Assembly: GCA_902158735.1 (NCBI GenBank)
Contig: CABGHG010000001.1
Span: 1 to 30,589 of the forward strand
Reading direction: 5' to 3'
Length of the DNA stretch: 30,589 nt
DNA from: Candidatus Methanolliviera sp. GoM_oil
GTDB taxonomy: Archaea; Halobacteriota; Methanoliparia; Methanoliparales; Methanoliparaceae
The notes under the pieces are model-generated. The model did not search any database. It saw only the letters and a list, made by a program, of their open reading frames with translations, and was not told the origin of the DNA. The position numbers were made by a program, and so were the translations under genes. Below are positions 1,263 through 27,853 of this stretch, piece by piece (position 1 is the first letter of the stretch; each line of letters opens with the position of its first letter).

Positions 1263-1286
1263 TCAAAAATCTCCAATTTGCACCAT
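1263..1286 (-). repeat. Monomeric copy of the hairpin-module family; fills the spacer between the mutase subunits
   Basis: Minus strand reads ATGGTGCAAATTGGAGATTTTTGA followed by the small-subunit ATG. GGAGATTTTTGA-ATG is identical to the sequence before rps3 and rpl32e. Confidence 0.75.
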
Positions 1287-1287
1287 C

Positions 1288-2982
1288 TCAAAATATGGGC
1301 GGCTCCCTAAATCTACCAAAGACATCCTGGAGCGCATACATCACCTCTCCCATCGTGGCTTTGGCATTCACCGCCTCATATATATGCTCAAACATCGGTT
1401 GAGGTTCGTCGAATTTATTATCCTGCATCTCCTCTGCCGTCTTTCTTATGGTATCAAGGATAGTATCTATCTTATTACCGTCCCTATTCTCTCTATACTC
1501 CTTCAACCATTTCCTTCTTTTCTCCTCGAGATCCAACGGTATTCTTAGAGGTTCAAACGAATATTCTATCGATTCTGGCTTTATATCATTTACACCAACT
1601 TTGATAATTTCATTCTTCTCGATCTTACCCTGGTATTCCGATGCCGATTTTGCAATCTCCCGCCAGAAGTAGCCATCGAGGATCGCCTTTGTGGCACCTC
1701 CCATCTTCTCGATCTTCTCGATCTCCTTCATCGCTCCTTCTGTCATCTCTCTTGTGAGCCATTCCACATAGTAAGAACCGCCGAGTGGATCAACCGTATC
1801 CGTTGCACCGATCTCGTATGCCAGTATCCTCTGGGTTAAGGTGGCAATATCCGCCGCTTTATCCGTCGGCGTACAGATCGCCTCATCGTAAGAATCTGTG
1901 TGTAAGGATTGGCAACCACCAAGCACCGCTGCCATCCCTTGTATGGCAACCCTTGCAATATTTGTCTCCGGATATTGGTATGTCAAGGTACATCCACCGG
2001 TTTGGACGTGGAACCTACACATAAGTGATTTTGGATTCTTAGCCCCGAACCAGTCTCTCATAATCTCCGCCCAGATCTTTCTCGCCGCCCTAAATTTTGC
2101 GACTTCCTCGAAGAAATTATCATGTGCGTTCCAGAAGAAGCTCAACCTCGGAGCAAAGCTATCCACATCCATCTTCCATCTCTCGGTAAGATACCTGACA
2201 AATTCTACGCCATCTGAAATCGTCCAAGCAAGCTCCTGGAGAGCAGTCGAACCCGCCTCTCTGATGTGGTATCCACTTATGCTGATCGTATTCCAGAGCG
2301 GAGCGTTCTTTGTGCAGTATCTTATCAGATCCGTGTTCAGATAGAGATGTGCCTCGGGTGAATATCTATAATGCTTCTGTGAATAAAAATCCTTCAGTGA
2401 ATCGTTCTGCGTCGTGCCACCGACCTTTGAGATCGGTATTCCTCGCTTCTTTGCGAGTGCAAAGTATGATGCGAGGATATATTCTGCCGGCGTGTTGATC
2501 GTGAAGTTAACGGTGATCTCATCCGGTCTAATCCCCGAGAAGAGGGATTCCATATCCTCAAATGTGCAGACAGATACACCACATCTGCCAACTTCTCCAA
2601 GGGCAAGTGGATCGTCGCTATCTATTCCATTTATCGTTGGAAAATCGAATGCCGTGCTCAACCCTGTTTCTCCGTGTGCCATAAGTTCTTTCCATCTTCT
2701 ATTCGTATCTTCTGGACCTCCTAAACCGGAGAACATCCGTATCGTCCATATCCTTCCTCTGAACATGTTGGGGTATATCCCCCGCGTATATGGATATTCG
2801 CCCGGTCTCCCTATATCTTTATCGTAATTTATCTCTCTTACATCTTCTGGAGTGTAAATCCTCTTTACCGGGACCCAAGACAACGTCTCAAAATCATCTC
2901 TTCTTTCAAGACCTTTCTTGGCCCTCTCCCTCTCTTCCATAGCCTTTTTAATCAGCTTCTTGCCCGCCTCTTCACCTATCAT
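1288..2982 (-). CDS. B12-dependent acyl-CoA mutase large (substrate-binding) subunit, isobutyryl-CoA-mutase-like
   Basis: PGEYPYTRGIYP, WTIRMFSG, GLSTAFDFPT, GTTQND, ISISGYHIREAG, HTDSYDEA, DPLGGSYYVE. Likely start is ATG 2982 (purine-rich GGAGAGG upstream); the ORF track extends it to 3015. Confidence 0.95.
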   Translation of the reverse strand: MIGEEAGKKLIKKAMEERERAKKGLERRDDFETLSWVPVKRIYTPEDVREINYDKDIGRPGEYPYTRGIYPNMFRGRIWTIRMFSGLGGPEDTNRRWKELMAHGETGLSTAFDFPTINGIDSDDPLALGEVGRCGVSVCTFEDMESLFSGIRPDEITVNFTINTPAEYILASYFALAKKRGIPISKVGGTTQNDSLKDFYSQKHYRYSPEAHLYLNTDLIRYCTKNAPLWNTISISGYHIREAGSTALQELAWTISDGVEFVRYLTERWKMDVDSFAPRLSFFWNAHDNFFEEVAKFRAARKIWAEIMRDWFGAKNPKSLMCRFHVQTGGCTLTYQYPETNIARVAIQGMAAVLGGCQSLHTDSYDEAICTPTDKAADIATLTQRILAYEIGATDTVDPLGGSYYVEWLTREMTEGAMKEIEKIEKMGGATKAILDGYFWREIAKSASEYQGKIEKNEIIKVGVNDIKPESIEYSFEPLRIPLDLEEKRRKWLKEYRENRDGNKIDTILDTIRKTAEEMQDNKFDEPQPMFEHIYEAVNAKATMGEVMYALQDVFGRFREPPIF

Positions 2983-3050
2983 CTTCCTCTCCTCTCTAAT
3001 TTCTTTGCATTGCATAGCATAAAAAGATATTTACAGGTTAAATGAGTATA

Positions 3051-3085
3051 GATCCCTCGCCATTTAGGGCGGGGAGTATGCCAGA
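3051..3085 (+). mobile_element. Solitary IS200/IS605-type end hairpin vestige
   Basis: GATCCCTCGCCATTTAGGGCGGGGAGTATGCCA is an imperfect hairpin resembling the remembered IS200/IS605 end pattern ..TCCCCGCCCTTTAGGGCGGGGAG(G/T)ATGTCA. No tnpA or tnpB nearby. Confidence 0.55.
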
Positions 3086-3109
3086 ACGTTGATTCTTCGC
3101 TTACGCGGA

Positions 3110-3137
3110 AAATGGGATGATAGAAATGGGATGATAG
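3110..3137. repeat. Perfect tandem duplication of a 14-mer
   Basis: AAATGGGATGATAG at 3110-3123 and 3124-3137. Confidence 0.9.
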
Positions 3138-3192
3138 TTATCTTTATATGGTATACTATTCAATCCTCAAAACAAAAAGAGAGGATTGATAT

Positions 3193-3366
3193 ATGGGAAA
3201 GACAGGAACGACAAAATGGGTAAAGATTAGAAATAAGAAGGGAAGATACAGGCTTGTGCCTCAAAAGAGGGCTAACTATAAAAGACCAGGGCCAAACCAG
3301 AGGCGCGATGGTAAGGGTAAACTCAGGAGAAGACTGAAGAGATCTCCTCAATCGGTGATCAGGTAA
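3193..3366 (+). CDS. Small highly basic protein, 57 aa (DUF5350-like from memory); missed by the ORF track
   Basis: MGKTGTTKWVKIRNKKGRYRLVPQKRANYKRPGPNQRRDGKGKLRRRLKRSPQSVIR. GAGGA SD at 3181-3185, TATA-like TTTATATG at 3143-3150, purine-rich coding-like composition. Confidence 0.75.
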   Translation: MGKTGTTKWVKIRNKKGRYRLVPQKRANYKRPGPNQRRDGKGKLRRRLKRSPQSVIR

Positions 3367-3373
3367 AATTCTT

Positions 3374-3388
3374 CAAAAGGTTTATATC
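3374..3388 (+). promoter_or_regulatory. Putative BRE/TATA promoter for aIF1, probably a leaderless transcript
   Basis: CAAAAGG-TTTATA (TATA at 3381-3386); ATG at 3409; no SD visible. Confidence 0.5.
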
Positions 3389-3408
3389 CTGTCATAGCAT
3401 AATTTTAC

Positions 3409-3723
3409 ATGATGAACCAGGACGTGTGTCCCAAGTGTGGACTTCCAAAAGACCTTTGTATATGTGAAGAGGTTGCCAAAGAGAGCCAAAAGGTAACCAT
3501 AAGGGTGAATAGGAGGCGTTACGGGAAAGAGGTTACGGTTGTGGACGGAATGGATGGGGGAGATATAGATCTTGATGAATTGGCACGTTTTCTAAAATCG
3601 AGACTCGCCTGCGGGGGGACGGTTAAAGACTCGACGATAGAGCTACAAGGGCAACACAAAGCTAGAGTAAAAGAGATGCTCATCTCCAAAGGATTTTCCC
3701 CAGGGCAGATAAAGGTCGTATAA
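3409..3723 (+). CDS. sui1: Translation initiation factor aIF1 (SUI1 family)
   Basis: N-terminal [43 protein letters not shown]. Confidence 0.95.
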
Positions 3724-3744
3724 GGAAGGGACTATCCTTTTTGG

Positions 3745-4452
3745 TTATTTTTGCTCGATATAAATCTCCTTGAAGGGTTTTTTTTGCTTTAAGACGATGT
3801 ATTTTCTGGCAGAGAGAAAGAGAAGCGGCAGATAGGTTAGTATTATGCTTGTGGGATTATTTTTATCCTCTCCCACCAGTTCTGATAGCGTAATGGTCGT
3901 TTTACTCTTAAATCTCTCATCGAGTATCTCTCTCATTCGCCGAATGATGGTTTCCATATCATCTTCATCCAGCATCTCTAAAACTTTTCTTTCCCGTCTT
4001 TCGTCCTCTCTCTCATCTTTTTTATGCGCCTTAGATCTATTTTTCTTCTCTCTCAATTTTATTGCTTTGTCCAATTGATCTATCAGTTCTAAAAGTGTGA
4101 CCGGTCTTTTTTTTAGTTTTACATGATGAAAGAATTTATCTCCCTCCTTTTCACCTATCTCCACCTCTCTTTCATCGGTAAAAAATTCTTCTTCATAAGA
4201 TTCTTCCTTGCACAACGTGCTCTCATTATCCTCTTCTAATAGAACCTCAGATTTCATCCTTAGAAGAATGGAACCATATAAAAGCGTCCTTCCAGATACT
4301 CTCAAGTTGAGCATCTTCATCTCCTTCAGATGCGACAGAAACTCATCCGTTACCTTCACTATATCTATATTCCACGGATCTATCGTCCCGTCCGATGCCA
4401 TCTCGAGGAGTATCTTTATCGGGTCTTCAGGCGGTAAAAGATCTGATTCCAA
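3745..4452 (-). CDS. scpA: Segregation and condensation protein A (kleisin)
   Basis: IDPWNIDIVKVTDEFL, GRTLLYGSILLRMKS, RPVTLLELIDQL, C-terminal YLPLLFL; abuts the smc stop codon. Confidence 0.92.
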   Translation of the reverse strand: MESDLLPPEDPIKILLEMASDGTIDPWNIDIVKVTDEFLSHLKEMKMLNLRVSGRTLLYGSILLRMKSEVLLEEDNESTLCKEESYEEEFFTDEREVEIGEKEGDKFFHHVKLKKRPVTLLELIDQLDKAIKLREKKNRSKAHKKDEREDERRERKVLEMLDEDDMETIIRRMREILDERFKSKTTITLSELVGEDKNNPTSIILTYLPLLFLSARKYIVLKQKKPFKEIYIEQK

Positions 4453-7400
4453 TTAATTCAACCTCACGCCCGTTATGTGAGATATACCATCCATGAGTGT
4501 TACTCCTAGCACACCATGCGCGCCTTCGAGCATCTTCTTCCTGAGTGAGATCACGATGAATTGGGCATCTGATGAGAAGCTTCGGATCATACTTGAGACC
4601 TTTCCGGCATTAACACCGTCAAGGAACATATCAACCTCATCGAAGATGTAGAAGGGTGACGGTTGGAATTTTTGCGCCGAAAATATTAGAGAGAGGGCGA
4701 TCAAACTCTTCTCTCCTCCCGACATCGCTTGTAATCTTTGAGCCACATTTTTACCTTCTGGCATCGCCCTGATCCAAAGCCCCCCATTAAAAGGATCTTC
4801 TTCATCTTCCAGAACCAGTTCCCCGCTTCCCCCCGAGATCCCCCCATATATCTCCTTGAAGTTCTCGTTTATCCCGTTAAACGTGTTCATAAACGCTTCG
4901 CGCTTCATCCCATCAAATTTTCCAATCCTCTCCAATAGATCATCTCGCTCTCGATTTAAAACATCTCTCTTCTCCGCGAGATCTCTGTATCTCCCATCCA
5001 CGGAGCCGTATTCATCGATGGATCTCATGTTGACGGGTTCCATGCTCTTGATCTCTCCAACAAACTCTTCTATCTTCTTTTCGATCTCTCTCTTTGGCGG
5101 AAGATCTTCTGGCACATCCATCGTGGCTACTTTTTCATCGAAGGAGGATATTCTCTCCCTCAATTCATCCAATTTTTCTTTTACAGACTCTTTCTTGGTG
5201 TTTATGATCTCAATATTTTTATTTATCGATAGTTCTTCTCTTTCAAGCGATGAAATTTCATTTAGGATAGCGTCTCTCTTCTCTCGCAATTTAAGTGTCT
5301 TTTCGTCTGCCTCTTCTTCGATCTTTCTCTTCTCCTCCACCAATGCTTTCATCTCTTCTATCTTCTTTTTCTCTCCCTCGATATCATTTTTAAGCATGGA
5401 TCTATCCTTCTCTCCATCCTCAAGCTCCTTTTTGAGCTCTTCGATCCTCTCTTCTGTATGCTTTTTATTCAGGGATCTCTCCCTCAATTCATCCTCTATC
5501 CCCCGTATCTTATCGTTCAACCTCGATACCTCTTCGATCAAAGAATCTCTTCTCTCTGTGAGAGATGGAAGCATCGAAGATCTGATGCCATCCGCCAACT
5601 CATTCTTCTTCGCTTCAAGCTCCTTAAATTCCAGATCTATCTCTCGAATCTTCTTCTCCAGTGAATCCATCTCATCAGAATAGTTTCTTCCCTCTTCTTC
5701 TATCTGGTTTATATCTCTCTCTATCTCTCCGATCTGTTTAGAAACGTCTTCTTTCTCCTTTTCAAAACCCGAGAGAACCGCCTCACATTTATATGATCTT
5801 CTCTCAATCTCCGTTAGGCGATCTCTTCTTCTCTCGATCTCTTCTCTCATATCTGCCAATTTTTCTCTTACCTCTTCTAATTTCATCTCTCTCTTTATAA
5901 TTTCTGCAGATATCTTCTGTAATTCATCTCTTCGATCGACAGAAAACTTTAATCTTCTCTTGAAGGAGCCACCCGTCATCGCTCCGCTCCTCTCGATCAA
6001 TTCGCCATCGAGCGTCACCATCCTGTAGCTATTTTTCATGCCGCATCGAGCATCTTCAAGATTATCGAAGACCAAGGTATCTCCAAATACGTAACCAAAA
6101 ACATCTTCGAACTTCTCATCGTATTTGACGAGATTCAATGTGTAATCGATGAATCCGTTCAGCTTTGGTTCTCTCTGGCTAATCCTGCTTTTTCTTATTC
6201 TGTTGAGCGGTAAAAACGTTGCTCTACCCATATTTTCTCTCTTTAAAAGGGATATGGCATTTGTAGCATCCTCGTCTGTATCTGTTACGATGTGCTGGAG
6301 TCTTCCACCAGCCGCAACTTCTAATGCCACCGAATATCGCTCATCCACCTTCCCAAGTTCCGCAACGGATCCATAGATTCCTCGAAGTTCTCCACTCCTT
6401 TTAGCATTTAATATGAAGCTTGCTCCCTTGCTATATGCGTCTAATTCTTCTGATGCCTTAATTTTTGCCTCTATTTTTGCGCACATCTCTTTTAATTCAT
6501 CTATTTTACCCTCTAACATATCTGCTTCAAGTTTTTCTGATGAATACCGCTCTTTTAGATCACCCAATTCGCCTGAAATTTTATTCTTCTCCCTTCTCAA
6601 TTCGCCAATCTCTTCAAGCGTCTTTTCCATCGAGTTCTCTATCTCTTCCAATCTTTCAGATAGATCGGATCTTTTACCGATCAATCCATCTTTCTCGGAC
6701 GATCTTCTCCTTGAAAAGCTCAATATCCTGTCTTCCTCTCTCAGACTCTCATCTTTTTCGTATCTCTTCTCCCTCATTTCAAATCCAATCTCATCCAATC
6801 TTTTTATCTCTTCCGCGTGAGCTGCCCCGATTTTGTCTATCTTGGACTTTATTCTGTTCAATTCATCATCCATCTCATCTCTTTCCAGATTAAAGATATT
6901 CAGCCCAACTGCCATCTTTTTAATAATCTCATCCATCTCATCAACTTCTTCCCGCGCTCTATTTGATTCGATGAATTTTTTTTTCATTCTATCTCCGATA
7001 GATCCTATCTCTTTCTCCATTGCCTCTATTTTACCTTTAGATTTTGATATACGCTCTGATATCTCTTCAATTTCTCTTTTAACATCTATTTTCCCCCCTC
7101 CTGCTTTAGATATCTCTGAATTTATCTCTTCCGACGCCCCATTCAATACGATGAGTTTGGACTTTATCTCAGAGATCGAGCAGGAGAAGGCATCTTTATC
7201 ACTTTCGTATCTTTCTAACTCCTCTTTCAAGATATTATCTCTTCTATGGAGGTATCTTAGTTCTAAAATTGTCATATAATTTTCATATATCTCTTTCTCT
7301 TCTTTTAAAGATTTATACTTCAAAGCCTGCTCTTTTTCGTATTTCAATTGGTTTAAACGATCTTTTATCTCGTTTAATATTATATCAGCCATCTCTATTC

Positions 7401-13325: not shown

Positions 13326-13787
13326 ATGCCGAGCAGACACAGATACTCTATCGATGCAGATCCGGTGCATGGTGTGCATTCTTATGGGCGAGAAATTGCG
13401 ATCTCCCAGAAACATTCTATGGAGATCTGCAGGGAGATTAAGGGAATGAAGGTTGGTACGGCAAAAGGCTATCTAAAAGATGTTATATCACTTAAAAAGC
13501 CTGTCCCTTTCAGGAAACACAACAAAAAGGTAGCACATAGAAAGATGAAGGGGTGGGATGCCGGAAAATTTCCAGAGAAAGCTGCCTCTGGGATATTGAG
13601 ATTACTGGAGAACGCAGAAAAGAATGCAGAATATAAAGGGCTAAATTCCGATGAGATGGTGATAAAGCACATAATGGCAAGCAAGGGGCGGCAGATGATG
13701 GGCTTTTATCCAAGGGCAATGGGTAGAACGACTCCAAAAAGGAAGATCTCTACAAATATTGAGATGATATTGGAAGAGGTGCAATGA
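13326..13787 (+). CDS. rpl22: 50S ribosomal protein uL22
   Basis: ISQKHSMEICREIKG, GKFPEKAA, NAEKNAEYKGL, PRAMGR. Confidence 0.97.
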   Translation: MPSRHRYSIDADPVHGVHSYGREIAISQKHSMEICREIKGMKVGTAKGYLKDVISLKKPVPFRKHNKKVAHRKMKGWDAGKFPEKAASGILRLLENAEKNAEYKGLNSDEMVIKHIMASKGRQMMGFYPRAMGRTTPKRKISTNIEMILEEVQ

Positions 13788-13811
13788 TGTGGGCAAACCG
13801 GAGATTTTTGA
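13787..13811 (+). repeat. Monomeric, degenerate copy of the hairpin-module family; fills the rpl22-rps3 spacer
   Basis: ATGTGGGCAAACCGGAGATTTTTGA then ATG. The first 21 nt match 18587-18607 at 18/21 positions; the last 12 nt are identical to 18671-18682. Confidence 0.8.
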
Positions 13812-14606
13812 ATGCCAGTTGAGAAGAAATTCATCATGGAAGGACTCGAAAAATATAGGTTGAATGAGTTCCTCGCGAAATCTCTCGTGACGGCAGGTTA
13901 TGGTGGAGCAGAATTGAACAGGACACCTCTCGGCATGCAGATAATTGTCTATGTTGAAAAACCGGGATTGGTGATAGGGAGAGGTGGCGAAAAGATAAGA
14001 AAAACCACCGAAGAGATCCGAAAGAAGTTTAATTTAGATAACCCACAGATAGAAGTGGTAGAATCTGAGAATGCACGATTAAATCCCCTAATAATGGCAA
14101 ATAGACTTGCGAATTTGTTGGAGAGAGGGTGGTATTTTAGAAGAGCAGGTCACAACATATTGAGAGAGATAATGGCTGCGGGGGCGCTTGGATGCGAGAT
14201 CGTGCTTGCGGGGAAGCTTACTGGTCCAAGAGCGAGGACGGAAAAATTTGTTAAAGGGTACATGATACATGCTGGAGAACCCGTAAATGATATTGTTAAG
14301 AGGGGATACACCATAGCCAAGAAGAAGCTCGGTGTGATAGGAGTTAATGTACGGATCATTCTTCCTTCCGCACGGTTGCCCGACAAATTCGAAGTTAAGG
14401 AGAAAGAAGAAGTGACGGTAGCAGTTAAGGAGAAAGAAGAAGTGACGGTAGCAGTTAAGGATAAAGAAGAAGTGACGGTAGCAGTTAAGGATAAAGAAGA
14501 AGCTACGGTAGTGGTTAAGGATAAAGAAGGAGCTACGGTAGTGGTTAAGGATAAAGAAGAAGCTACGGTAGCAGTTAAGGATAAAGAAGAAGCGACAGAG
14601 GGATGA
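13812..14606 (+). CDS. rps3: 30S ribosomal protein uS3 with a repetitive C-terminal tail
   Basis: KH motif KPGLVIGRGG, ERGWYFRRAG, GKLTGPRARTEKF, followed by 7 decapeptide repeats. Confidence 0.97.
   Translation: MPVEKKFIMEGLEKYRLNEFLAKSLVTAGYGGAELNRTPLGMQIIVYVEKPGLVIGRGGEKIRKTTEEIRKKFNLDNPQIEVVESENARLNPLIMANRLANLLERGWYFRRAGHNILREIMAAGALGCEIVLAGKLTGPRARTEKFVKGYMIHAGEPVNDIVKRGYTIAKKKLGVIGVNVRIILPSARLPDKFEVKEKEEVTVAVKEKEEVTVAVKDKEEVTVAVKDKEEATVVVKDKEGATVVVKDKEEATVAVKDKEEATEG
14394..14603 (+). repeat. In-frame 30-bp tandem repeat, 7 units, encoding VK(E/D)KE(E/G)(V/A)TV(A/V)
   Basis: Unit GTTAAGGA(G/T)AAAGAAG(A/G)AG(TG/CT)ACGGTAG(CA/TG) starts at 14394, 14424, 14454, 14484, 14514, 14544 and 14574 (last unit diverges at its 3' end). 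Confidence 0.98.
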
Positions 14607-14820: not shown

Positions 14821-15162
14821 ATGAGATTAAAACCGACGAACATATTGTATCACGAATTGATAGGGCTTGATGTAACAGTTGAAGATAGCAAGAATCCATA
14901 TCAGATCGGCATAAAGGGAAAAGTCACCGATGAGACGAAGAAGATGCTCGTGATCTCTGAGAGGTCAGAAGAGAAGAAGATTGCAAAGAAAGATGCAAAA
15001 TTCATGTTTAAAAATCCTTTGAGCGATGATTGCGAATCTTCGATTCGCAAACTTGAAGATGGAACATTTTCAAAGGATACTTGGAAGAATGTTCTGATAG
15101 ATGGAAGGCTGTTGGTCGGTAGGCCAGAGGAGAGAATTAAAAAGATGGGGGATACATCATGA
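14821..15162 (+). CDS. rnp1: Ribonuclease P protein component 1 (Rpp29/Pop4) with an internal insertion
   Basis: [44 protein letters not shown]; canonical position between rpl29 and rps17. Confidence 0.93.
15026..15073 (+). repeat. 48-bp dimeric hairpin element inside rnp1, in frame
   Basis: 40/48 ungapped identity to the minus strand of 27806-27853. Hairpins: TTGCGAATC-TTC-GATTCGCAA (15030-15050) and TTGAAGATG-GAA-CATTTTCAA (15053-15073, one G-T pair). Confidence 0.85.
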
Positions 15163-15473
15163 GAAATATTGGTCTAAACGTTAAACCGCCGGAGAGTGAA
15201 TGCAGCGATATAAATTGTCCTTTTCATGGAAATCTCTCCGTTAGAGGACAAGTCTTTGTCGGCAAGGTGGTAAGCTCAGAGGGTAAAACCGTCGTTGTTA
15301 GAAGGGAGATGAACCGATTTGTGAAGAAGTACGAGAGATATGAGAGAAGAAGCTCTAAGATTCACGCTCATGATCCCCCTTGCATCAAAATTAGGGTGGG
15401 AGACCTGGTAAAAGTAGCGGAATGCAGGCCGATCAGCAAGACCAAATCCTTCGTCGTCGTTGAGAGGCTATAA
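15159..15473 (+). CDS. rps17: 30S ribosomal protein uS17
   Basis: [46 protein letters not shown]. Confidence 0.97.
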
Positions 15474-15871
15474 TGAAAACGATCAAATCTAATGTAACAA
15501 AAGCGTTACAGACGCGCTCCAGACTTCTCTGTGCAGATAACAGCGGGGCAAAGATCTTGGAGATAATCAGTGTTAAAGGGTATAGGGGTGTTAGGAGAAG
15601 GTATCCGAAAGCCGGCATAGGGGATATAGTGGTGGTAACCGTAAAGAAGGGGGCACCTGAGATGAAAAAACAGATCTTAAATGCGGTGATAATCAGGCAA
15701 AAAAAAGAATTCAGAAGGTCAGACGGATCCAGGATTCAATTTGAAGATAATGCGGCCGTAATCATGGATGAAAGTGGTGGGTTGAAGGCTTCGGAGATAA
15801 AAGGCCCCGCCGCGAGAGAGGCAGTAGAGAGATTTTCTAAGATAGCTTCCCTGGCTTCTATGATCGTTTGA
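15473..15871 (+). CDS. rpl14: 50S ribosomal protein uL14
   Basis: [33 protein letters not shown]. Confidence 0.98.
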
Positions 15872-18065: not shown

Positions 18066-18584
18066 ATGAGAAGAGAGCTAAATATACCAGGGGATGTTGA
18101 AATTACCATCGATAAGGATGTGATAGAAGTGAAGGGGCCAAAAGGGACGCTAAAAGAGAGATTATTCTATATTGGCGTTGAGATATTTAAAGAGGATAAT
18201 AAAGTAATTGTAAGTACCCAAAAAAGCAAAAAAGAACACAGATCCATCATAGGCACGTTTGCATCCCACATAAACAATATGATAGTCGGGATTACGAGTG
18301 GATTCGAGTACAAACTTAAGGTGGTCTATGCACACTTTCCCATCCAACTTGAACTAAAAGATGATAAACTCGTCATAAATAATTTCCTGGGAGAGAAGAA
18401 ACCGAGGGTGGCCAATATCCTTGGGGATGCAAAGGTGAAGATAGATAAGGATACTATAACGGTTACTGGGACAGCTAAGGAAGAGGTTGGACAGACCGCC
18501 GCTAATATGGAACAAGGCACCAAGATCAGAAGAAGGGATCCAAGGGTCTTTCAAGATGGTATCTACCTCATAAGTAGGGGATAG
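18066..18584 (+). CDS. rpl6: 50S ribosomal protein uL6
   Basis: VKGPKG, VYAHFP, NFLGEK, RDPRVFQDGIY; ATG 18066 preferred over GTG 18057. Confidence 0.97.
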   Translation: MRRELNIPGDVEITIDKDVIEVKGPKGTLKERLFYIGVEIFKEDNKVIVSTQKSKKEHRSIIGTFASHINNMIVGITSGFEYKLKVVYAHFPIQLELKDDKLVINNFLGEKKPRVANILGDAKVKIDKDTITVTGTAKEEVGQTAANMEQGTKIRRRDPRVFQDGIYLISRG

Positions 18585-18586
18585 TC

Positions 18587-18682
18587 ATGTGGGTAAATCG
18601 AAGATTTGCATATGCTCAAGCAAAGCTTGGCATGCCAAAAATCCAAAGGATTTTTGAGCACTCAAAAATCGGAGATTTTTGA
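18587..18682 (+). repeat. 96-bp tetrameric array of triloop hairpins between rpl6 and rpl32e
   Basis: AAATC-GAA-GATTT (18595-18607), CAAGC-AAA-GCTTG (18617-18629), CAAAAATCC-AAA-GGATTTTTG (18636-18656), TCAAAAATC-GGA-GATTTTTGA (18662-18682), plus the palindrome TTGGCATGCCAA (18627-18638). Confidence 0.9.
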
Positions 18683-19069
18683 ATGGGAGAAGAACAGAGA
18701 TTATTGGGAGTTCGCAGCACACAAAAGCATAAAAAGCCAAGATTCTCCAGATATGGCTCTAAATATAAAAAAAGAGTTAAAGAAGCGTGGAGAAGGCCGA
18801 GAGGGAGACAAAATAAACAGAGGCGTGGAAAAGTATCAAAACCGGCGGCTGTTAAGGTAGGATATGGTTCTCCTGCACTTGTTAGGGGGTTACACCCTTC
18901 TGGACGTGAAGACACGCTCGTAAGAAACATTAAAGAGCTGGAAAAAGTCGATCCTGAAAAACAGGTGGCTAGAATCGCGAGAACCGTCGGCAGAAAAAAA
19001 AGATTGGAGATAGAGGAGAGAGCAGAAGAGATTGGGATAAAGATCATTAATATGGTGAAGGAACTATGA
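18683..19069 (+). CDS. rpl32e: 50S ribosomal protein eL32
   Basis: KKPRFSR, WRRPRGRQNKQR, GYGSP, RGLHPSG. Confidence 0.97.
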   Translation: MGEEQRLLGVRSTQKHKKPRFSRYGSKYKKRVKEAWRRPRGRQNKQRRGKVSKPAAVKVGYGSPALVRGLHPSGREDTLVRNIKELEKVDPEKQVARIARTVGRKKRLEIEERAEEIGIKIINMVKEL

Positions 19070-23116: not shown

Positions 23117-23770
23117 ATGGATATAAAGGATGTAGCGGGAAAGATCGCTCTTGTGGTCGGTTTCGGGTTGATGTTCGGCATAATGATCGGGGGTCAGGGA
23201 TTTAGAGATTCCGTAGGACTCTCTGTAAACTTCATCTTTCACCCATTGGCCGATATTCTAACCGCGAGCAATCTACACATCTTGATCCTGATCCTTTCTG
23301 CCCTGACAGGTCTTTATACCGCATTGATCCAGAAGTATACGATAGACTGGGATCTCATGAAGAGATTCCAGACGAAGATGAAGAAGTTCCAGGTGGAATA
23401 CAAAAAGGCTCAACTATCCGGGGATAAGGAAAGATTGATGAAGTTGAGTGAAGAGAGCAAAAAAACGATGGGGGAGAGCGTAGAGATGCAGAAGCAACAG
23501 CTTAAGCCTATGGGGTACATATCCATACTGACCATTCCGCTCTTCATGTGGCTCTACGTATATTTGAGTGAGGTGTACGGCGTCTATGGATGGGGTGCGG
23601 TGAGTAATTCTATCGCCGGTCCAAGCTTTATCTTCCCCTTCTTCGGTAGTAAACTACTCGTCGATACGGTATTTTGGGGCTTTCAGTGGTGGTTACTTTG
23701 GTATTTCGTCTGTTCCCTCTTCTTCGGGCAGATATTCATGAAGGCATTAAATACGGGTATGAGCATTTGA
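23117..23770 (+). CDS. DUF106 / EMC3-TMCO1 (Oxa1 superfamily) membrane protein
   Basis: TM helix, then coiled coil (DWDLMKRFQ...), then KPMGYISILTIPLFMW and C-terminal WLLWYFVCS; usual position after secY; GGAGTGA SD before ATG 23117. Confidence 0.88.
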   Translation: MDIKDVAGKIALVVGFGLMFGIMIGGQGFRDSVGLSVNFIFHPLADILTASNLHILILILSALTGLYTALIQKYTIDWDLMKRFQTKMKKFQVEYKKAQLSGDKERLMKLSEESKKTMGESVEMQKQQLKPMGYISILTIPLFMWLYVYLSEVYGVYGWGAVSNSIAGPSFIFPFFGSKLLVDTVFWGFQWWLLWYFVCSLFFGQIFMKALNTGMSI

Positions 23771-23796
23771 GAACTATCCAACGGTGAGGTGAAAAG

Positions 23797-24174
23797 ATGG
23801 CAAACGATCTTCTCGGTTATTTTAGAAAGGTAGGATTAGCAGCGCTTTATGATCTGGTCGTACCGGCAATTTTAGAAAAAATTGAGAGAGTAACTCCTCA
23901 AGATATCCGCGATTCTATAGACGAGTGGAAAGACCCGTGGGAGTATATTCCTGCCGAGATGAAAGAGATCCTATTTGAGATGGTCAAGAGATATAAACAG
24001 CTTATCAAGAAGTATATTAACACGATAACGCCGGAGATGATGATGGATCTGTTATTAAAAGCGAGAAGAGATTTGGCCGGAGCTATTATAGATCACAGAG
24101 ACGGGGATAGGTGGTGGGAATGGTGGATAGGGCTGGCGAAAGAGAGGATATTGAAGGAGATATCAAAATCATGA
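23797..24174 (+). CDS. Hypothetical all-alpha-like protein, 125 aa
   Basis: Strong GAGGTGA SD, coding-like composition, ATGA overlap with the next gene; family not recognised. Confidence 0.8.
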   Translation: MANDLLGYFRKVGLAALYDLVVPAILEKIERVTPQDIRDSIDEWKDPWEYIPAEMKEILFEMVKRYKQLIKKYINTITPEMMMDLLLKARRDLAGAIIDHRDGDRWWEWWIGLAKERILKEISKS

Positions 24175-26039
24175 AGGATTTAAGCCCATTGTTCGACCCA
24201 AGATCGATTGCGGTGATCGGGGCAACAAACGACTTTAACAAATGGGGTTTTATCACTTTTTTAAGCACCATAAGTGGATTTAGGGGAAAGGTCTATCCTG
24301 TGAATTGGAATGAAGAGAAAGTACTGGGTTACCCGGCATTTAAAAAGGTGACCGATATACCGGATCCGATTGATCTGGCAATATTCGTTATCCCTGCTCC
24401 TGCTGTTTCTAATGTTATGGAAGATTGTGTCGAAAAGGGCGTCAAATCTGCCGTCATCATCTCCGCCGGATTTGCAGAGATCGGAGAAGAGGGGAAGAGA
24501 TTAGAAGATGAACTCATCAGGGTGGCAAAGAAGGGAAAAATTCGCTTCGTCGGTCCAAATTGTATGGGATTCTGGAGTGCTTCTTCAAATTTGTCGGCAC
24601 TCATGTATCCCACTCCTTTCAGAGACGGTCCATTTGCTCTTGTGACACAGGGGGGAAATCTGGGTGTTGCAATAGCAATGGACGCCTATAAGCGAGGAAT
24701 AGGGTTTCACAGGTACGTGAGTTGCGGACGCGCCGTTGGTATACAGATCGAAGATTATATCGAGTACTTTGGGAAAGACCCCGAGGTAAAGGTGATCCTA
24801 ACTTATATAGAGGGTTTAGATGATGGGAGAAGATTCATCGATAAGGTCAGAGGGGTGACGAGAGAGAAACCGGTCGTCGTGCTTAAACCTGGGAAGAGCG
24901 AAGTTACGGAGAGGGCGATAATGTCTCATTCCGGGGCCCTCTCTGGCTCGTATCAGATTTATGGAGAGGCATTCAAAAAGGCTGGAGCGATCAGGGTAGA
25001 TAGCGCCGAGGAGCTTTTGGATGTAGGTATTGGATTACTATCCCAGCCGCTTCCAACGGGGAGAAATGTTGCCGTCATCACCCCTGGGGGAAGCTACGGT
25101 GTTATGTGTGCCGATTGTTGTGCCCCTCTTGGCCTAAATGTGATCAAACTACCAAAAAATATTATCAATGAATTTGATAAAATGTTTCCTCCTCGATGGA
25201 GCCGCGGTAACCCCATAGATCCGGCGGGAGATCGAGATTTTGTCCCCTATCTGAAGGCGGTTGAGCGAGTGATGGAACTAAAAGAAGTGGATTCATTGAT
25301 CTTTATGGGTTTTGGCAATCTTTCCAGCTTTTTTGAGATGGATTCGCCGCTATTCAGAGATATGATAAAATTTATGCCGGAGATCGTTCCGAATCTACTC
25401 TCCACGTTTGATCTTAGAAAGATCGATATTCAACAATTCTTACCTTTGCTCAATTCTCCATTCTTAAGCTCTTTTTTAGCCTTTTCGTATAAGGGGGTAA
25501 ATGGAGATACAGACGAAAAAGAACTCTCCGAAAAAGTTACCTCATCGATCAATTCTGCCTTTGAGGGGGGTGGAAATATAAGAACCTTTAAAGGATTGAT
25601 CGATTCCGTGATAGAAAAGATCGACCTCGTCGGATTGATATTACCTCTTTTACCTATAATTGCCCCTATCATATCTGCCGGAGAAGAGATAGGCGAAAAA
25701 GAGTTTGTTCCGTTGATTGCCCCAATAATAGAATCCAGCAGATCAGATATAACATCTATAACGAAGAATATGATCTTGGGGATTCCATCTTTCCTTAACC
25801 CTGAAGGGATGGATATGAGCAAAATTTTGGAGGTATTTGATTCCATCATGGGAATGATCGTCCTCTACTGGATCGAGGCATATAAAAAACCAATAATTGC
25901 AACCACCTTCTCCGGGGCGACAACTCCTCTAATAAATTTGAGCAGGGGACCCTACTTTGCATATCCTTCTCCCGAGCGGGCGGCAAAAGTTCTGACAAAA
26001 TTGTTCGAATATAAGGAATATCTGGATTCTTCAAGATAG
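24171..26039 (+). CDS. ADP-forming acyl-CoA synthetase alpha subunit (CoA-binding and ligase domains, no ATP-grasp), 622 aa with a large insertion
   Basis: LFDPRSIAVIGA, GPNCMG, TQGGNLG, YIEG, LKPGKS, phospho-His motif SHSGALSG (His codon 24927-24929), GNPID. GAAGGAGA SD favours ATG 24171 over 24111. Confidence 0.9.
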   Translation: MKDLSPLFDPRSIAVIGATNDFNKWGFITFLSTISGFRGKVYPVNWNEEKVLGYPAFKKVTDIPDPIDLAIFVIPAPAVSNVMEDCVEKGVKSAVIISAGFAEIGEEGKRLEDELIRVAKKGKIRFVGPNCMGFWSASSNLSALMYPTPFRDGPFALVTQGGNLGVAIAMDAYKRGIGFHRYVSCGRAVGIQIEDYIEYFGKDPEVKVILTYIEGLDDGRRFIDKVRGVTREKPVVVLKPGKSEVTERAIMSHSGALSGSYQIYGEAFKKAGAIRVDSAEELLDVGIGLLSQPLPTGRNVAVITPGGSYGVMCADCCAPLGLNVIKLPKNIINEFDKMFPPRWSRGNPIDPAGDRDFVPYLKAVERVMELKEVDSLIFMGFGNLSSFFEMDSPLFRDMIKFMPEIVPNLLSTFDLRKIDIQQFLPLLNSPFLSSFLAFSYKGVNGDTDEKELSEKVTSSINSAFEGGGNIRTFKGLIDSVIEKIDLVGLILPLLPIIAPIISAGEEIGEKEFVPLIAPIIESSRSDITSITKNMILGIPSFLNPEGMDMSKILEVFDSIMGMIVLYWIEAYKKPIIATTFSGATTPLINLSRGPYFAYPSPERAAKVLTKLFEYKEYLDSSR

Positions 26040-26060
26040 TATTGTAGATTAGGCACTATC

Positions 26061-26112
26061 GATTTTTCTAGTGATTTTCAACTTTTTCACATTTTTCAAT
26101 AGCCATTTTTTG
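26061..26112 (+). terminator. Putative oligo-T terminator region after the acyl-CoA synthetase gene
   Basis: Several T4-T6 tracts in an AT-rich stretch directly after the stop codon. Confidence 0.4.
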
Positions 26113-26275
26113 CATGTTAGAAGATTTTAAAACATATTTTACACAATTTTTTTATATTTCTCATCATTATGTTTCAGATGGTGAAAAACCAGAAAACAGT
26201 TCATTTTTATCATAAAAAAAGGGATAGCTATCGCTATTAGATTACTCTTTGATAAACCCAAAAATAGACAAAAAG

Positions 26276-26592
26276 TTATCCAGGATCTAAAAAGGGAATG
26301 AACTTCAAGAATACTTCAAGCAGCGTTTTCTCAGGTTTTTTGAGCATTCCAGCTCTCCTCATTGCAGAGAGCTTTATATGATTTTCAATTCCCTTATCCT
26401 TCCGAAGTTGTTTCTTTCTGTGCGTCTTGAGACTTGTTGAATAATAGTTCTCAAGTAAATTATTAGTGGCAGGAGCTCCTTTCACGAAGTAGAAGCTGTG
26501 AGGTACTTCCAGTTCTTCTTTATCATCTCCAATCTCTTTCTAACAGGTGTGCTAAATGAATAGAACTCCTTCATAAGATCATCGAAGGTCCT
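26276..26592 (-). pseudogene. Truncated, frameshifted transposase C-terminus (resembles methanogen ISNCY-type transposases, from memory)
   Basis: Three frames join as RTFDDLMKEFYSFSTPVRKRLEMI / KKNWKYLTA / FYFVKGAPATNNLLENYYSTSLKTHRKKQLRKDKGIENHIKLSAMRRAG...FIPFLDPG*. At least two frameshifts; N-terminus absent. Confidence 0.7.
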
Positions 26593-26632
26593 CAAAAATC
26601 TTCGATTTTTGGGATCCCACGACGAAGTCGTC
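26592..26632 (-). repeat. Dimeric hairpin element at the 5' break of the transposase fragment
   Basis: CAAAAATC-TTC-GATTTTTG (26593-26611), palindrome TGGGATCCCA (26610-26619), ACGAC-GAA-GTCGT (26619-26631); same layout as 18617-18658. Confidence 0.8.
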
Positions 26633-26833
26633 AGGAGAAAAAGAACAAACCATCGCTAGATTTTCGGACTGTGCCGGTTTGAGAACAGCTGTTTTCAGTG
26701 CTTTAGGTGCGATAACCTTCAACATTTCTTCCTTATGCATTCTTCGATTCATAAATGGATATTCTGCACATAGGCAGTGCGACTGCTATGCTGATTACAA
26801 GGTTTAAATATTTTCTTTACCCTAAAAAGAGCC

Positions 26834-27805
26834 TTATTTTTTTGCCTTTATTCCAGTGATCCCATCTTTTTCAATGTCAAATAGAATCTCCGTCTCTTCA
26901 CCATCTTGCACGATGAGTTTCCTCCCTTCGATTATCTCACCAATTCTTTTTGCGTCGAGTAGATGGTCTTTAAAGACAGTTATCACTTCTGCTGTATCCT
27001 TCTTTTTGCAGGTTACCACAAACCCCATCCCCGGATACATCTTGAGCCATTGTTCCATCTCTAACCCATCAGGTATGGGTATATCATTTATATCTACGAT
27101 TGCCCCGACCCCACTGACCTCAAGAAGCATGCCGAGTGTTCCAAGCATTCCAGGATTACTCAAATCTTTTCCCGCCGTCACAAGTTTTCTTCTTCCCAAT
27201 ATTCTCATGGATTCCATCTGTCTCTTCAACGTCTCACCATCTTTTAAAGTGACGCTATCCCAACATAGGCTACATGTGGGGTAAATTCTGCCGTTCAAAT
27301 CCACGCCCACGACGACATCTTCGCCGACGTTTGCCGTGTGGCTATAGATCACAGAATCTTTCTCTGCTCTTCCTACGATGGTGATACCCAATGAATTGTA
27401 TGAAGTGTTTGGGTGGAGGTGTCCTCCGACGATCGGTACTTTGAACTTCTTTATCGCGTCCTGCATGCCTTTTAAAGCTTCCATGCAAAATTCTTTGGAC
27501 TTCATTGCGAGAATGTTCACCATTGCAAGGGGAGTTCCTCCCATCGCACAGATGTCGTGAATGTTTACAAGTATGGAGCAATAGCCTGCCCAGTATGGAT
27601 CGGCGTCTATCATCTTTTCCCATATACCATCCGCTGACATGAGAATGATATCATCCCCAAAATCGAGGACTGCGGCGTCTTCCCCAAAAGAAGCTATCAC
27701 AAAATCCTCCTTCTCTTCAAACCCCTCTACAATGTGACCTATATCGCTCTTCCTCTTGACACCGTCAAACTCTCTTATTTTATGTAGCAGATCTTTTAGA
27801 TTCAT
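26834..27805 (-). CDS. Methanogenesis marker protein 2 (PurM/AIR-synthase-like)
   Basis: MNLKDLLHKIREFDGVKRK, FGEDAAVL, ADGIW, DPYWAGYCSILVNIHDICAMGG, VGGHLHP, GKDLSNPG. Likely start ATG 27805; the ORF-track extension to 27853 is the hairpin element. Confidence 0.85.
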   Translation of the reverse strand: MNLKDLLHKIREFDGVKRKSDIGHIVEGFEEKEDFVIASFGEDAAVLDFGDDIILMSADGIWEKMIDADPYWAGYCSILVNIHDICAMGGTPLAMVNILAMKSKEFCMEALKGMQDAIKKFKVPIVGGHLHPNTSYNSLGITIVGRAEKDSVIYSHTANVGEDVVVGVDLNGRIYPTCSLCWDSVTLKDGETLKRQMESMRILGRRKLVTAGKDLSNPGMLGTLGMLLEVSGVGAIVDINDIPIPDGLEMEQWLKMYPGMGFVVTCKKKDTAEVITVFKDHLLDAKRIGEIIEGRKLIVQDGEETEILFDIEKDGITGIKAKK

Positions 27806-27853
27806 TTGAAAATCTCCGATTTTCAAGTGTGCAAATCGAAGATTTGCACTCAT
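27806..27853 (-). repeat. 48-bp dimeric hairpin element directly upstream of the marker-2 ATG
   Basis: Two perfect 9-bp stems: TTGAAAATC-TCC-GATTTTCAA (27806-27826) and GTGCAAATC-GAA-GATTTGCAC (27829-27849). Confidence 0.9.

What the first reader, a model, noticed from the sequence alone, without database searches (positions are those of the whole stretch)
1263..27853. Hairpin elements supply the Shine-Dalgarno sequence and abut the ATG of four unrelated genes
Seen: GGAG-ATTTTTGA-ATG precedes the mutase small subunit (1274-1260, minus), rps3 (13800-13814) and rpl32e (18671-18685). GGAG-ATTTTCAA-ATG precedes marker 2 (27817-27803, minus). The GGAG-to-ATG spacing is 8 nt in all four. At rpl32e and marker 2 the GGAG spans the loop and 3' arm of a perfect 9-bp stem, whereas the stem has decayed in the rps3 and mutase copies. 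Each element also starts with its own ATG. This gives mini-ORFs ending IGDF*, directly before the gene start, at 1286-1263 and 18587-18682, and an in-frame MSANLRFAHLKIGDFQ extension at marker 2. Inference: the element is a portable translation-initiation or coupling cassette, perhaps occluding the SD until a ribosome unwinds it.
Basis: partly seen in the sequence, partly recalled or inferred. Interest (0 to 1): 0.75.

Follow-up and report, generated by a model that had tools for sequence, protein, structure and literature searches.

The report
Start-codon-targeting mobile hairpin repeat
The four "leader hairpins" are copies of a tiny (about 45-base) double-hairpin mobile repeat of the oil-degrading archaeon Candidatus Methanolliviera. 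It lands exactly on gene start codons, repeats the ATG and brings its own ribosome-binding site, so the gene it hits can still be translated.

Summary
GGAG-N8-ATG with the same 15-mer sits at all four window sites (4 found, 0.03 expected). The motif is one end of a repeat family found only in this family of archaea. Three Ca. Methanolliviera genomes carry 22, 27 and 30 exact 20-mer copies. One copy occurs in the sister genus, and none in 396 other genomes of the phylum.

The basic unit is 48 nt: ATG, hairpin 1, a 2-nt linker, hairpin 2 with the GGA of the Shine-Dalgarno (SD) sequence in its triloop, then a second ATG. Six clean empty/filled pairs between close relatives show a 47-48-nt insertion directly after a start ATG, with ATG repeated. 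Two more pairs show stacked units, and metagenome contigs hint at an empty rpl32e allele.

About 78% of 95 copies abut a coding ORF, always in sense. GGAG lies at this genome's modal SD spacing. The "decayed" rps3 and mutase copies are a recurrent 24-25-nt short form that lacks 23 internal bases.

The mini-ORF/coupling idea holds for only about a third of copies, and SD occlusion is untested. The closest precedents are MIRUs of mycobacteria and Neisseria REP2. This scan has already noted similar start-codon elements in DPANN and CPR genomes. I rate it a new variant of a known kind.

The parts
27803..27853 (-). Canonical 48-nt unit plus the repeated ATG, at the start of the AIR-synthase-like 'marker 2' gene. 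Left ATG 27853-27851. Hairpin 1: arms 27849-27841 and 27837-27829, loop TTC. Linker AC. Hairpin 2: arms 27826-27818 and 27814-27806, loop GGA 27817-27815. Right ATG 27805-27803.
   Evidence: (two 9-bp hairpins, -17.9 kcal/mol, z -3.7). In the sister genus a TATA-like box lies 22 nt before the single ATG. Here it lies 23 nt before the left ATG. A second copy of the gene on contig C16 carries the 25-nt short form.
18587..18685 (+). 96-nt four-module copy between the rpl6 stop (18582-18584) and the eL32 start (18683). Hairpin 2: arms 18662-18670 and 18674-18682, loop GGA 18671-18673. A 48-nt inner piece at about 18611-18659 is absent in both sister species.
   Evidence: G001 and G002 carry a 48-nt two-hairpin form here, and the sister genus has no element. 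Metagenome contigs show joints that skip 48 nt, and a joint 18586>18683 that skips 96 nt with 3 shared letters (short sides, so weak).
13787..13814 (+). 25-nt short-form copy plus ATG, between the rpl22 stop (TGA 13785-13787) and the uS3 start (13812). GGAG 13800-13803.
   Evidence: G002 has the same short form. G001 has the full 96-nt form at this site. In the sister genus TAA abuts ATG with no element.
1260..1286 (-). 24-nt short-form copy plus ATG, between the mutase large-subunit stop (TGA 1290-1288) and the B12-binding small-subunit start (1262-1260). GGAG 1274-1271. It contains the mini-ORF MVQIGDF*.
   Evidence: G002 has the same form. G001 reads ATGGTGCAA directly followed by ATGATAAAA and so lacks the 15 nt that hold GGAG.
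15026..15073 (+). Sibling 48-nt two-hairpin unit inserted in frame in Rpp29. It has the same left end (ATGATTGCGAATC), but hairpin 2 has a GAA loop, so there is no SD and no ATG at its right end.
   Evidence: The 16 extra residues are present in all three Methanolliviera genomes and absent in both genomes of the sister genus.
15473..15475 (+). Unoccupied target: the start codon of rpl14. It is empty here, in G001 and in the sister genus, but carries a 47-nt unit in G002.
   Evidence: This sets the polarity: an insertion in the G002 lineage.

Best explanation
The four sites are copies of one lineage-specific mobile (or at least copy-spreading) DNA repeat of Ca. Methanolliviera.

Anatomy. The unit is two 9-bp triloop hairpins joined by a 2-nt linker, about 45 nt in all. 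In occupied sites it is bracketed by ATG on both sides, giving 48 nt from ATG to ATG.

Shown here:
- It integrates directly 3' of an ATG, usually AATG, always in the same orientation relative to that ATG.
- The left ATG is the gene's old start codon, still with its old SD or promoter.
- The right ATG is the one that aligns with the protein's N-terminus.

Inferred:
- Hairpin 2 puts GGAG exactly 8 nt before the right ATG, the preferred SD spacing of this genome. In two thirds of copies a stop codon touches that ATG.
- A ribosome can therefore either start afresh on the element's SD or, in some copies, read a short ORF from the old start and restart.
- In both cases the gene survives the insertion. 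That would explain why copies accumulate on start codons of unrelated genes while insertions elsewhere are mostly lost.
- The element looks mainly like a selfish repeat built to do little harm, not a dedicated regulator.

Later changes. Slippage between the two near-identical 5' arms removes 23 nt and gives the 24-25-nt short form seen at rps3 and the mutase. Nested or stacked insertions give the 96-nt and longer forms.

The enzyme, or replication error, that moves the element is unknown.
For: 1. The family is real and lineage-restricted. The exact 20-mer occurs 22, 27 and 30 times in the three Methanolliviera genomes, 1 and 0 times in the sister genus, and 0 times in 396 other genomes of the phylum. 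The organism was named.

2. Insertions are precise. Six empty/filled pairs differ by 47-48 nt directly after the start ATG, with ATG (often AATG or AAATG) repeated. Two more pairs show an extra unit stacked on the ATG of an older unit. For rpl14, only G002 is filled while G000, G001 and both outgroups are empty.

3. Copies sit at gene starts. 30/38, 21/27 and 23/30 copies abut an ORF with coding signal. Start codons make up only 16.8% of non-CDS ATGs.

4. ATG placement is specific to the GGA loop. ATG lies exactly 4 nt after the stem core in 30/45 GGA-loop hairpins. For the opposite-strand reading (TCC) it is 2/45, and for other loops it is 13% or less.

5. The left ATG behaves like an old start codon. 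An SD-like 4-mer lies upstream of it in 43% of cases. The rate is 46% at called gene starts and 17% at random ATGs. At marker 2, the TATA-to-ATG distance matches the outgroup.

6. The SD is plausible. GGAG peaks at a spacing of 8 nt genome-wide: 82 genes, and 59 without element copies. The 16S 3' end reads GGAUCACCUCCU.

7. The stem is kept. The outer 3 bp are perfectly complementary in 57/85 copies, against 20.8 in shuffles, in six different pair combinations.
Against: - No transposase or autonomous parent was found.
- All three genomes are fragmented MAGs. G000 is 75% complete with 4.9% contamination.
- Gene starts come from my own crude dicodon caller. The rule 'ATG followed by a coding ORF' would also accept internal Met codons.
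- Start-codon preference could be purely selective rather than targeted.
- Three of the polymorphic sites are not clean (43, 26 and 31 nt).
- At the mutase site, insertion versus a 15-nt deletion in G001 cannot be polarised.
- No transcript, ribosome or structure-probing data exist. Use of the element's SD is therefore inferred from sequence alone.
Confidence: 0.75

Rival explanations
1. Dedicated regulatory leader. The GGA-loop hairpin is a selected cis-regulatory RNA shared by 25-30 genes. Candidates are an SD-occluding switch, a thermosensor, or a binding site for an RNA-binding protein. Its spread would then reflect recruitment for co-regulation, and mobility would be only the vehicle.
For: The stem is maintained by matched changes. 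The hairpin folds at -6.7 kcal/mol, with the last G of the SD and the whole spacer paired. Copies are kept at orthologous sites in three species, for example rpl32e, marker 2 and rps3. Neisseria REP2 is a precedent for a repeat that co-regulates the genes behind it (PMC3184786).
Against: - The genes are unrelated.
- Many occupied sites are polymorphic between species that are 94-99% identical.
- About a fifth of copies (21 of 95) do not abut a coding ORF. The nine such G000 sites examined lie in spacers, at 3' ends or inside or antisense to coding sequence.
- The short forms at rps3 and the mutase have lost the stem yet keep GGAG-N8-ATG.
- Matched stems can also reflect subfamilies copied from different masters, or a DNA-level need for the hairpin.
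- No CsrA-like protein was found and there is no Rfam match.
Confidence: 0.15
2. Mobilisation by a single-strand HUH/Y1 enzyme, of the IS200/IS605-TnpA or RAYT type. The two hairpins would act as left and right ends, the element would insert 3' of a short target (A)ATG on one strand, and its right end would itself finish in (A)ATG.
For: - Orientation relative to the asymmetric ATG is invariant.
- There are hairpins at both ends and nothing else.
- Empty sites are precise.
- Y1_Tnp genes are present in G000 (2) and G002 (1).
- The genome holds 241 AAATC-N3-GATTT palindromes, including a sister family headed by (G)TAG, as in REPs.
Against: The Y1 genes found are ordinary IS605 tnpA-tnpB units. 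Their ends carry a different hairpin (CCCCTTCCGTAAGGGAGGGG type) and do not end in AATG. None was found in G001 (91% complete), which has 27 copies. The cleavage sites would lie unusually close to the hairpin feet.
Confidence: 0.25
3. Spread without a transposase. Replication stalls at hairpins, and a nascent strand ending in (A)AATG switches to another locus where an element follows (A)AATG. It copies the 45 nt and switches back at the element's terminal (A)AATG. The same slippage would explain the 23-nt deletions and the stacked units.
For: - The repeated flank is 3-5 nt or more and matches the element's own end (AATG, AAATG, AATGA).
- Orientation is fixed.
- Tandem stacking occurs exactly at the ATG.
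- The recurrent 23-nt deletion lies between near-identical direct-repeat arms.
- No parent element was found.
Against: 3-5 nt of microhomology is very short for about 30 independent events per genome. It gives no explanation for the restriction to one genus. The six clean events all have the same unit length.
Confidence: 0.2
4. No element at all: unrelated genes converged on the best ribosome-binding sequence of this genome, or the matches are chance.
For: GGAG at 8 nt is the modal SD arrangement.
Against: The 15-mer is identical at the sites, with 0.03 expected per window. The upstream hairpin modules are shared. Indels of 47-48 nt are precise. Copies occur at non-genes. Other GGAG-N8 leaders are all different from one another.
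Confidence: 0.01

Closest known systems
MIRUs (mycobacterial interspersed repetitive units; Supply et al. 1997, as described in PMC12548453 and PMC3184786)
   Same: Both are short (40-100 bp) repeats in tens of copies that appear mobile. Both insert at start codons, often inside operons. Both carry a short ORF that ends at the gene's start, so the insertion has little effect on expression. Both show empty/filled sites between relatives and occur in tandem stacks.
   Different: MIRUs are bacterial, GC-rich and unrelated in sequence, and their ORF overlaps the gene by 4 nt. Here the host is an archaeon and the unit is two A/U-rich triloop hairpins. The SD sits in a loop, a stop (when present) abuts the ATG with 0-nt spacing, and the internal ORF is intact in only about a third of copies. 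The built-in SD, not coupling, is the common feature.
Neisseria REP2 (CREN) and Borrelia IR repeats (PMC3184786)
   Same: [quoted passage not shown]
   Different: They are 2-3 times longer, also carry a promoter, and are bacterial. The review read here describes no insertion at the start codon with ATG duplication. The 45-nt unit here has no room for an archaeal TATA/BRE promoter.
REP/REPIN elements with RAYT transposases, and IS200/IS605-derived palindrome-associated elements (named from my own knowledge plus PMC3184786)
   Same: All are very short hairpin-forming repeats, often as doublets, present in hundreds of copies. They are orientation-specific and lineage-restricted. A Y1 transposase family is present in the genome.
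   Different: REPs are extragenic, usually lie 3' of genes, and have a GTAG head. No RAYT flanked by these hairpins was found. The resident IS605 ends differ from these hairpins.
Rickettsia palindromic elements (RPE; listed in PMC3184786)
   Same: These palindromic repeats can sit in frame inside protein genes, like the Rpp29 copy at 15026-15073.
   Different: RPEs are 105-146 bp and bacterial, and are not known to target start codons or carry an SD.

Membership tests
Classical MITE (DDE-transposon derivative) | Terminal inverted repeats | tested here: met
   The left end TTGCAAATC and the reverse complement of the right end, TTGAAAATC, agree at 8/9 positions. This follows trivially from two similar palindromes.
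Classical MITE (DDE-transposon derivative) | Target-site duplication seen in empty versus filled sites | tested here: met
   ATG (3 nt; often AATG or AAATG) flanks the 47-48-nt insert in six clean pairs.
Classical MITE (DDE-transposon derivative) | Insertion in either orientation, and a parent IS with matching ends | tested here: not met
   All copies have the same orientation relative to ATG...ATG. No longer element bounded by these ends was found in G000.
IS200/IS605-type or RAYT-mobilised hairpin element | Hairpins at both ends and oriented insertion 3' of a short fixed target | tested here: met
   The unit consists of two hairpins, and insertion is always directly after (A)ATG on the sense strand.
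IS200/IS605-type or RAYT-mobilised hairpin element | A cognate Y1 transposase whose own ends or flanks carry the same hairpins | tested here: not met
   Y1_Tnp genes at G000 C130 and C113 belong to IS605 units with different end hairpins. None was found in G001 (91% complete).
IS200/IS605-type or RAYT-mobilised hairpin element | Single-strand cleavage and circular junction intermediates | not testable with these tools
   This needs biochemistry or raw-read searches for right-end/left-end junctions.
MIRU-like start-codon repeats (same strategy, not shared ancestry) | Insertion at start codons of unrelated genes, including inside operons | tested here: met
   74/95 copies abut coding ORFs. Operon-internal examples are rps3, rpl32e and rpl14.
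MIRU-like start-codon repeats (same strategy, not shared ancestry) | An internal ORF coupled to the downstream gene | tested here: inconclusive
   The stop is adjacent to the ATG in 17 of 46 copies with a left ATG. A further 8 are fusions, 7 stop early and 14 are out of frame.
Neisseria REP2-like promoter/RBS/ATG cassette | RBS and ATG inside the repeat | tested here: met
   GGAG-N8-ATG is present in every copy by definition, at the genome's modal SD spacing.
Neisseria REP2-like promoter/RBS/ATG cassette | A promoter inside the repeat, and co-regulation of the genes behind it | not tested
   No TATA-like box is evident in the 45 nt. No expression data were available.
SD-sequestering RNA switch, thermometer or CsrA-type GGA-loop site | SD paired in a metastable stem, or a GGA loop bound by a CsrA-family protein | tested here: inconclusive
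   GGA is in the loop, and only the fourth SD base and the spacer are paired (-6.7 kcal/mol). No CsrA homologue was found in G000 (the genome is 75% complete). There is no Rfam family match.

The most novel reading that the evidence does not exclude
Start codons are actively recognised as the target, not merely tolerated. The recognition would come from an unknown single-strand or transcription/translation-linked mechanism. The family would then have been co-opted in Methanolliviera as a genus-wide translational module. It would convert leaderless or weak-SD genes into SD-led ones and put 25-30 unrelated genes, including ribosomal proteins and a methanogenesis marker, under one hairpin-dependent control such as temperature or a hairpin-binding protein.
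Probability: 0.12. Interest if true: 0.85.

Novelty: new variant of a known kind. Interest (0 to 1): 0.6.

Why it matters
It shows how a minimal selfish repeat of only two hairpins can colonise the most sensitive base triplet of a gene without killing it, by carrying a ribosome-binding site and re-creating the start codon.

In archaea many genes are leaderless. Such insertions turn a 5'-terminal AUG into an SD-led internal start, so they could be a route by which translation-initiation modes change during evolution.

Practical consequences:
- These elements mislead gene callers about start sites and N-terminal extensions.
- They break metagenome assemblies. Depth rises 3-4-fold in the 650-nt bin that holds the rpl32e copy.
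- They provide natural empty/filled allele pairs for testing SD-in-hairpin effects in methanogens.

Together with MIRUs and the DPANN and CPR cases noted elsewhere in this scan, this suggests that repeats landing on start codons are a recurrent, under-described class.

Tried and rejected
- RNA evidence: no RNA run was listed for the rpl32e region. Only DNA metagenome contigs could be laid.
- Rfam: the only match in the window is a tRNA.
- CsrA-type GGA-loop binding: no CsrA homologue in G000.
- Small GIY-YIG (Ssn-like) nuclease, a lead from earlier scan notes: the only GIY-YIG hits are single 519-535-aa frames per genome, a size I take to be UvrC (not checked), and they are not linked to the repeat.
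- Resident IS605 as the parent: its ends carry a different hairpin.
- Autonomous parent bounded by the element's ends: none found in G000.
- Universal mini-ORF coupling: rejected by the frame census. A TTT loop in hairpin 1 even creates an early TGA (MIANL*).
- 'Decayed stems': replaced by the recurrent short form.
- Literature on Methanoliparia repeats: nothing relevant was found.
- Polarity at the mutase site (insertion in G000+G002, or a 15-nt deletion in G001) could not be settled.
- Strand bias relative to replication cannot be tested in fragmented MAGs.

Full report
**Observation**

All four sites exist as described. The 15-mer GGAGATTTTYRAATG occurs four times in the window, against 0.03 expected from dinucleotide-preserving shuffles. 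In every case GGAG is 8 nt from an ATG.

Each ATG opens a recognisable gene:
- a B12-binding mutase small subunit (843-1262, minus strand);
- uS3 (13812-14606);
- eL32 (18683-19069);

At rpl32e and marker 2 the GGA is the triloop of a perfect 9-bp stem (-6.7 kcal/mol, z about -3). The rps3 and mutase copies fold no better than shuffles. The mini-ORFs and the in-frame extension translate as stated.

**Organism and distribution**

The window is contig 1 of a 1.70-Mb, 218-contig MAG (75% complete, 4.9% contamination; 42.6% GC). Its close relatives are titled Candidatus Methanolliviera hydrocarbonicum NM1b (G001) and Ca. Methanolliviera sp. GoM_asphalt (G002).

Copy numbers of the exact 20-mer AAATCGGAGATTTTYRAATG:

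| Genome set | Copies |
|---|---|
| G000 (own) | 22 |
| G001 | 27 |
| G002 | 30 |
| Sister genus, two genomes | 1 and 0 |
| 396 other genomes sampled from the phylum | 0 |

The single sister-genus copy is a complete 48-nt unit behind an SD-like GGAGG.

The motif is one member of a much larger set of triloop hairpins. AAATC-N3-GATTT palindromes number 241 in G000, against 0-18 for permuted arms. Their loops are almost only TTC/GAA, AAA/TTT and GGA/TCC.

**Anatomy**

Copies from three genomes were aligned by eye. They give this unit:
- ATG, then A;
- hairpin 1 (TTGCAAATC, a 3-nt loop, GATTTGCAA);
- the linker AC;
- hairpin 2 (TTRAAAATC, GGA, GATTTTYRA);
- ATG.

The distance from the first ATG to the second is 48 nt. 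Marker 2 carries exactly this form.

ATG follows the stem core at exactly +4 in 30 of 45 GGA-loop hairpins. The figure is 2 of 45 for the opposite-strand reading and 13% or less for other loops. A sister 48-nt family that begins (G)TAG has TTC/GAA loops in hairpin 2 and is never followed by ATG. The GGA loop plus ATG is therefore a property of this subfamily, not of the hairpins in general.

The outer three base pairs of hairpin 2 vary, and the two sides match: TTA/TAA, TTG/CAA, TCA/TGA, CTA/TAG, GTG/CAC and GTA/TAC. 57 of 85 copies are perfect, against 20.8 in shuffles, and no shuffle out of 2000 reached 57. This shows the stem is kept. It does not show whether DNA or RNA needs it, and subfamily structure could contribute.

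**It is an insertion at the start codon**

Orthologous junctions were compared with the two sister species and with the sister genus.

Six pairs are clean. Each is a 47-48-nt insert directly after the start ATG, with ATG repeated (often AATG, AAATG or AATGA):

| Filled | Empty |
|---|---|
| G001 locus L043 | G000 C12:3267 |
| G002 L075 | G000 C80:7116 |
| G001 L047 | G000 C120:1673 |
| G002 L062 | window 15473 (rpl14) |
| G002 L067 | G000 C75:3155 |
| G002 L071 | G000 C86:3844 |

- For rpl14 the site is empty in G000, G001 and both outgroup genomes. The insertion therefore happened in the G002 lineage.
- In two further pairs (L073 versus L037, L064 versus L058) G002 has an extra 48-nt unit stacked on the ATG of an older unit.
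- Three other polymorphic sites are not clean (43, 26 and 31 nt).

The window's own sites:
- **rps3.** The sister genus has TAA abutting ATG. G000 and G002 have the 25-nt form, and G001 has a 96-nt form.
- **rpl32e.** G000 has 96 nt, G001 and G002 have 48 nt, and the sister genus has none. Metagenome contigs show joints that skip 48 nt. One joint skips the whole 96 nt with three letters shared between the sides. Those joints have short sides and count only as weak support.
- **marker 2.** The outgroup has a TATA-like box 22 nt before its single ATG. In Methanolliviera the same box lies 23 nt before the left ATG, while the protein aligns from the right ATG.

More generally, an SD-like 4-mer precedes the left ATG in 43% of copies. 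The rate is 46% at called gene starts and 17% at random ATGs. The left ATG is therefore the old start codon, which explains why "each element starts with its own ATG".

**Short and long forms**

The two 5' arms are near-identical direct repeats 23 nt apart. Losing the stretch between them gives ATG-ATTGCAAATC-GGA-GATTTTYRA-ATG, a 25-nt form.

That form is seen at nine or more loci. It alternates with the 48-nt form at orthologous or duplicated sites:
- window marker 2 versus the copy on contig C16;
- C117 versus C138;
- G001 L034 versus G000 C71 and G002 L068.

The rps3 and mutase copies belong to this form. At the mutase site G001 lacks just the 15 nt that hold GGAG, and the direction of that change is unresolved.

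**Placement statistics**

With my own dicodon-based gene caller, the copies that abut an ORF with coding signal are 30/38 in G000, 21/27 in G001 and 23/30 in G002.

Start codons are 2.2% of all ATGs and 16.8% of ATGs outside coding sequence. The binomial P values are 1e-11 or lower.

Two caveats apply:
- The rule would also accept internal Met codons. 45% of unrelated GGAG-N8-ATG sites pass it.
- The caller is crude.

The ortholog comparisons above are the stronger evidence.

I looked at nine G000 sites where the ATG opens no long coding ORF. They lie in a 5' leader, between convergent genes, inside or antisense to coding sequence, or inside other repeats. A sibling unit without the SD loop sits in frame in Rpp29 in all three Methanolliviera genomes and not in the sister genus.

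**How it probably works**

- GGAG at 8 nt is the modal SD arrangement of this genome: 82 genes, and 59 without element copies. The 16S rRNA ends in GGAUCACCUCCU.
- The triplet before the right ATG is a stop in 64 of 95 copies.
- The frame from the left ATG ends at that stop in only 17 of 46 copies with a recognisable left ATG. A further 8 are fusions, 7 stop early (a TTT loop creates a TGA) and 14 are out of frame.
- Termination-reinitiation is known to need near-zero spacing in an archaeon (PMC10666635). It can therefore apply to some copies only.

The feature shared by all copies is the SD plus ATG. I infer that the element is tolerated on start codons because it rebuilds a working initiation site. 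Whether the -6.7 kcal/mol hairpin damps initiation is untested.

**Mobilisation**

This is unknown. Three observations fit a single-strand HUH/Y1 mechanism or microhomology-guided template switching better than a cut-and-paste DDE transposon:
- the orientation is fixed relative to an asymmetric target;
- there are hairpins at both ends;
- empty sites are precise.

Y1 genes exist in G000 and G002, but they belong to IS605 units with different end hairpins, and none was found in G001. No small GIY-YIG gene and no parent element were found.

**Comparison with known elements**

- MIRUs of mycobacteria are described as mobile repeats that insert at start codons, with an internal ORF coupled to the gene (PMC12548453, citing Supply et al. 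1997; PMC3184786).
- Neisseria REP2 and Borrelia IR repeats carry a promoter, an RBS and an ATG directly upstream of genes, with two stem-loops (PMC3184786).

The Methanolliviera element uses the same strategy but differs in several ways. It is archaeal and unrelated in sequence. It consists of two triloop hairpins, with the SD in a loop. It duplicates the ATG, and it relies on the SD more than on coupling.

Earlier notes of this scan report comparable start-codon repeats in DPANN archaea and CPR bacteria. I did not test those.

**Verdict**

I rate the element a new variant of a known kind.

Noticed in passing
Whole genome G000; e.g. C98:6269-6401, C22:9109-9212: The genome holds a superfamily of triloop hairpin modules. 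There are 241 AAATC-N3-GATTT palindromes, plus GTGAAAATG-GAA-CATTTTCAC, CCTACC-GAA-GGTAGG and ACGAC-TTCG-GTCGT types. They are combined in 1- to 6-module arrays. One sister family is a 48-nt doublet headed by (G)TAG, and one array has six tandem copies.
   Followed up: partly
Hairpin 1 of the units, genome-wide: Loops occur in both complementary forms on the same stem (TTC 75 versus GAA 48, AAA 29 versus TTT 25 on one strand). It looks as if loops flip while stems stay. In the start-codon subfamily, hairpin 2 is GGA in sense almost without exception.
   Followed up: partly
G000 C3:16152(-), C2:23555(-), C3:5129(+), C15:1489(+): A second, smaller hairpin type, AAACC-AGA-GGTTT, puts AGAGG in its loop and 3' arm. 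An ATG follows 2-6 nt later and opens ORFs of 162-483 codons in 4 of 5 copies with an AGA or AGC loop. This is an independent case of an SD in a loop next to a start.
   Followed up: partly
window 15026-15073: A 48-nt two-hairpin unit is inserted in frame in Rpp29. It adds 16 residues in all three Methanolliviera genomes and is absent in the sister genus.
   Followed up: yes
G000 C130:2427-4000 and C113:1-1800; also C25, C79, C87, C152: IS605-type tnpA-tnpB units are present. Several tnpB 3' ends and right-end regions have AAATC-type hairpin modules inserted where intact copies have a CTTCTC-AAA-GAGAAG hairpin.
   Followed up: partly
window 26300-30589 versus G000 contig C16 (about 9.4 kb; 16S rRNA 3' end at about C16:13200): The marker 2 region is present twice at about 97% identity, on C1 and on C16. 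G001 also has two copies, on C17 and C25. This is either a true duplication next to the rRNA operon or strain heterogeneity in the MAGs. The two G000 copies differ by the 23-nt long/short element polymorphism.
   Followed up: partly
window 29379-29484 (-): The tRNA match spans 106 nt for a 71-position model, so the gene probably contains an intron.
   Followed up: no
window 18114-18764 and 25926-27878: Metagenome contig depth rises 3- to 20-fold over bins that contain hairpin repeats. Many contigs end or join other loci there, which shows that these repeats fragment assemblies.
   Followed up: no
GATTTTTGA / GATTTTTAA 3' arms, e.g. window 18674-18682: Most copies place a run of five T directly before the start codon. 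Oligo-T is the archaeal intrinsic termination signal (from my own knowledge), so the element might also attenuate transcription.
   Followed up: no
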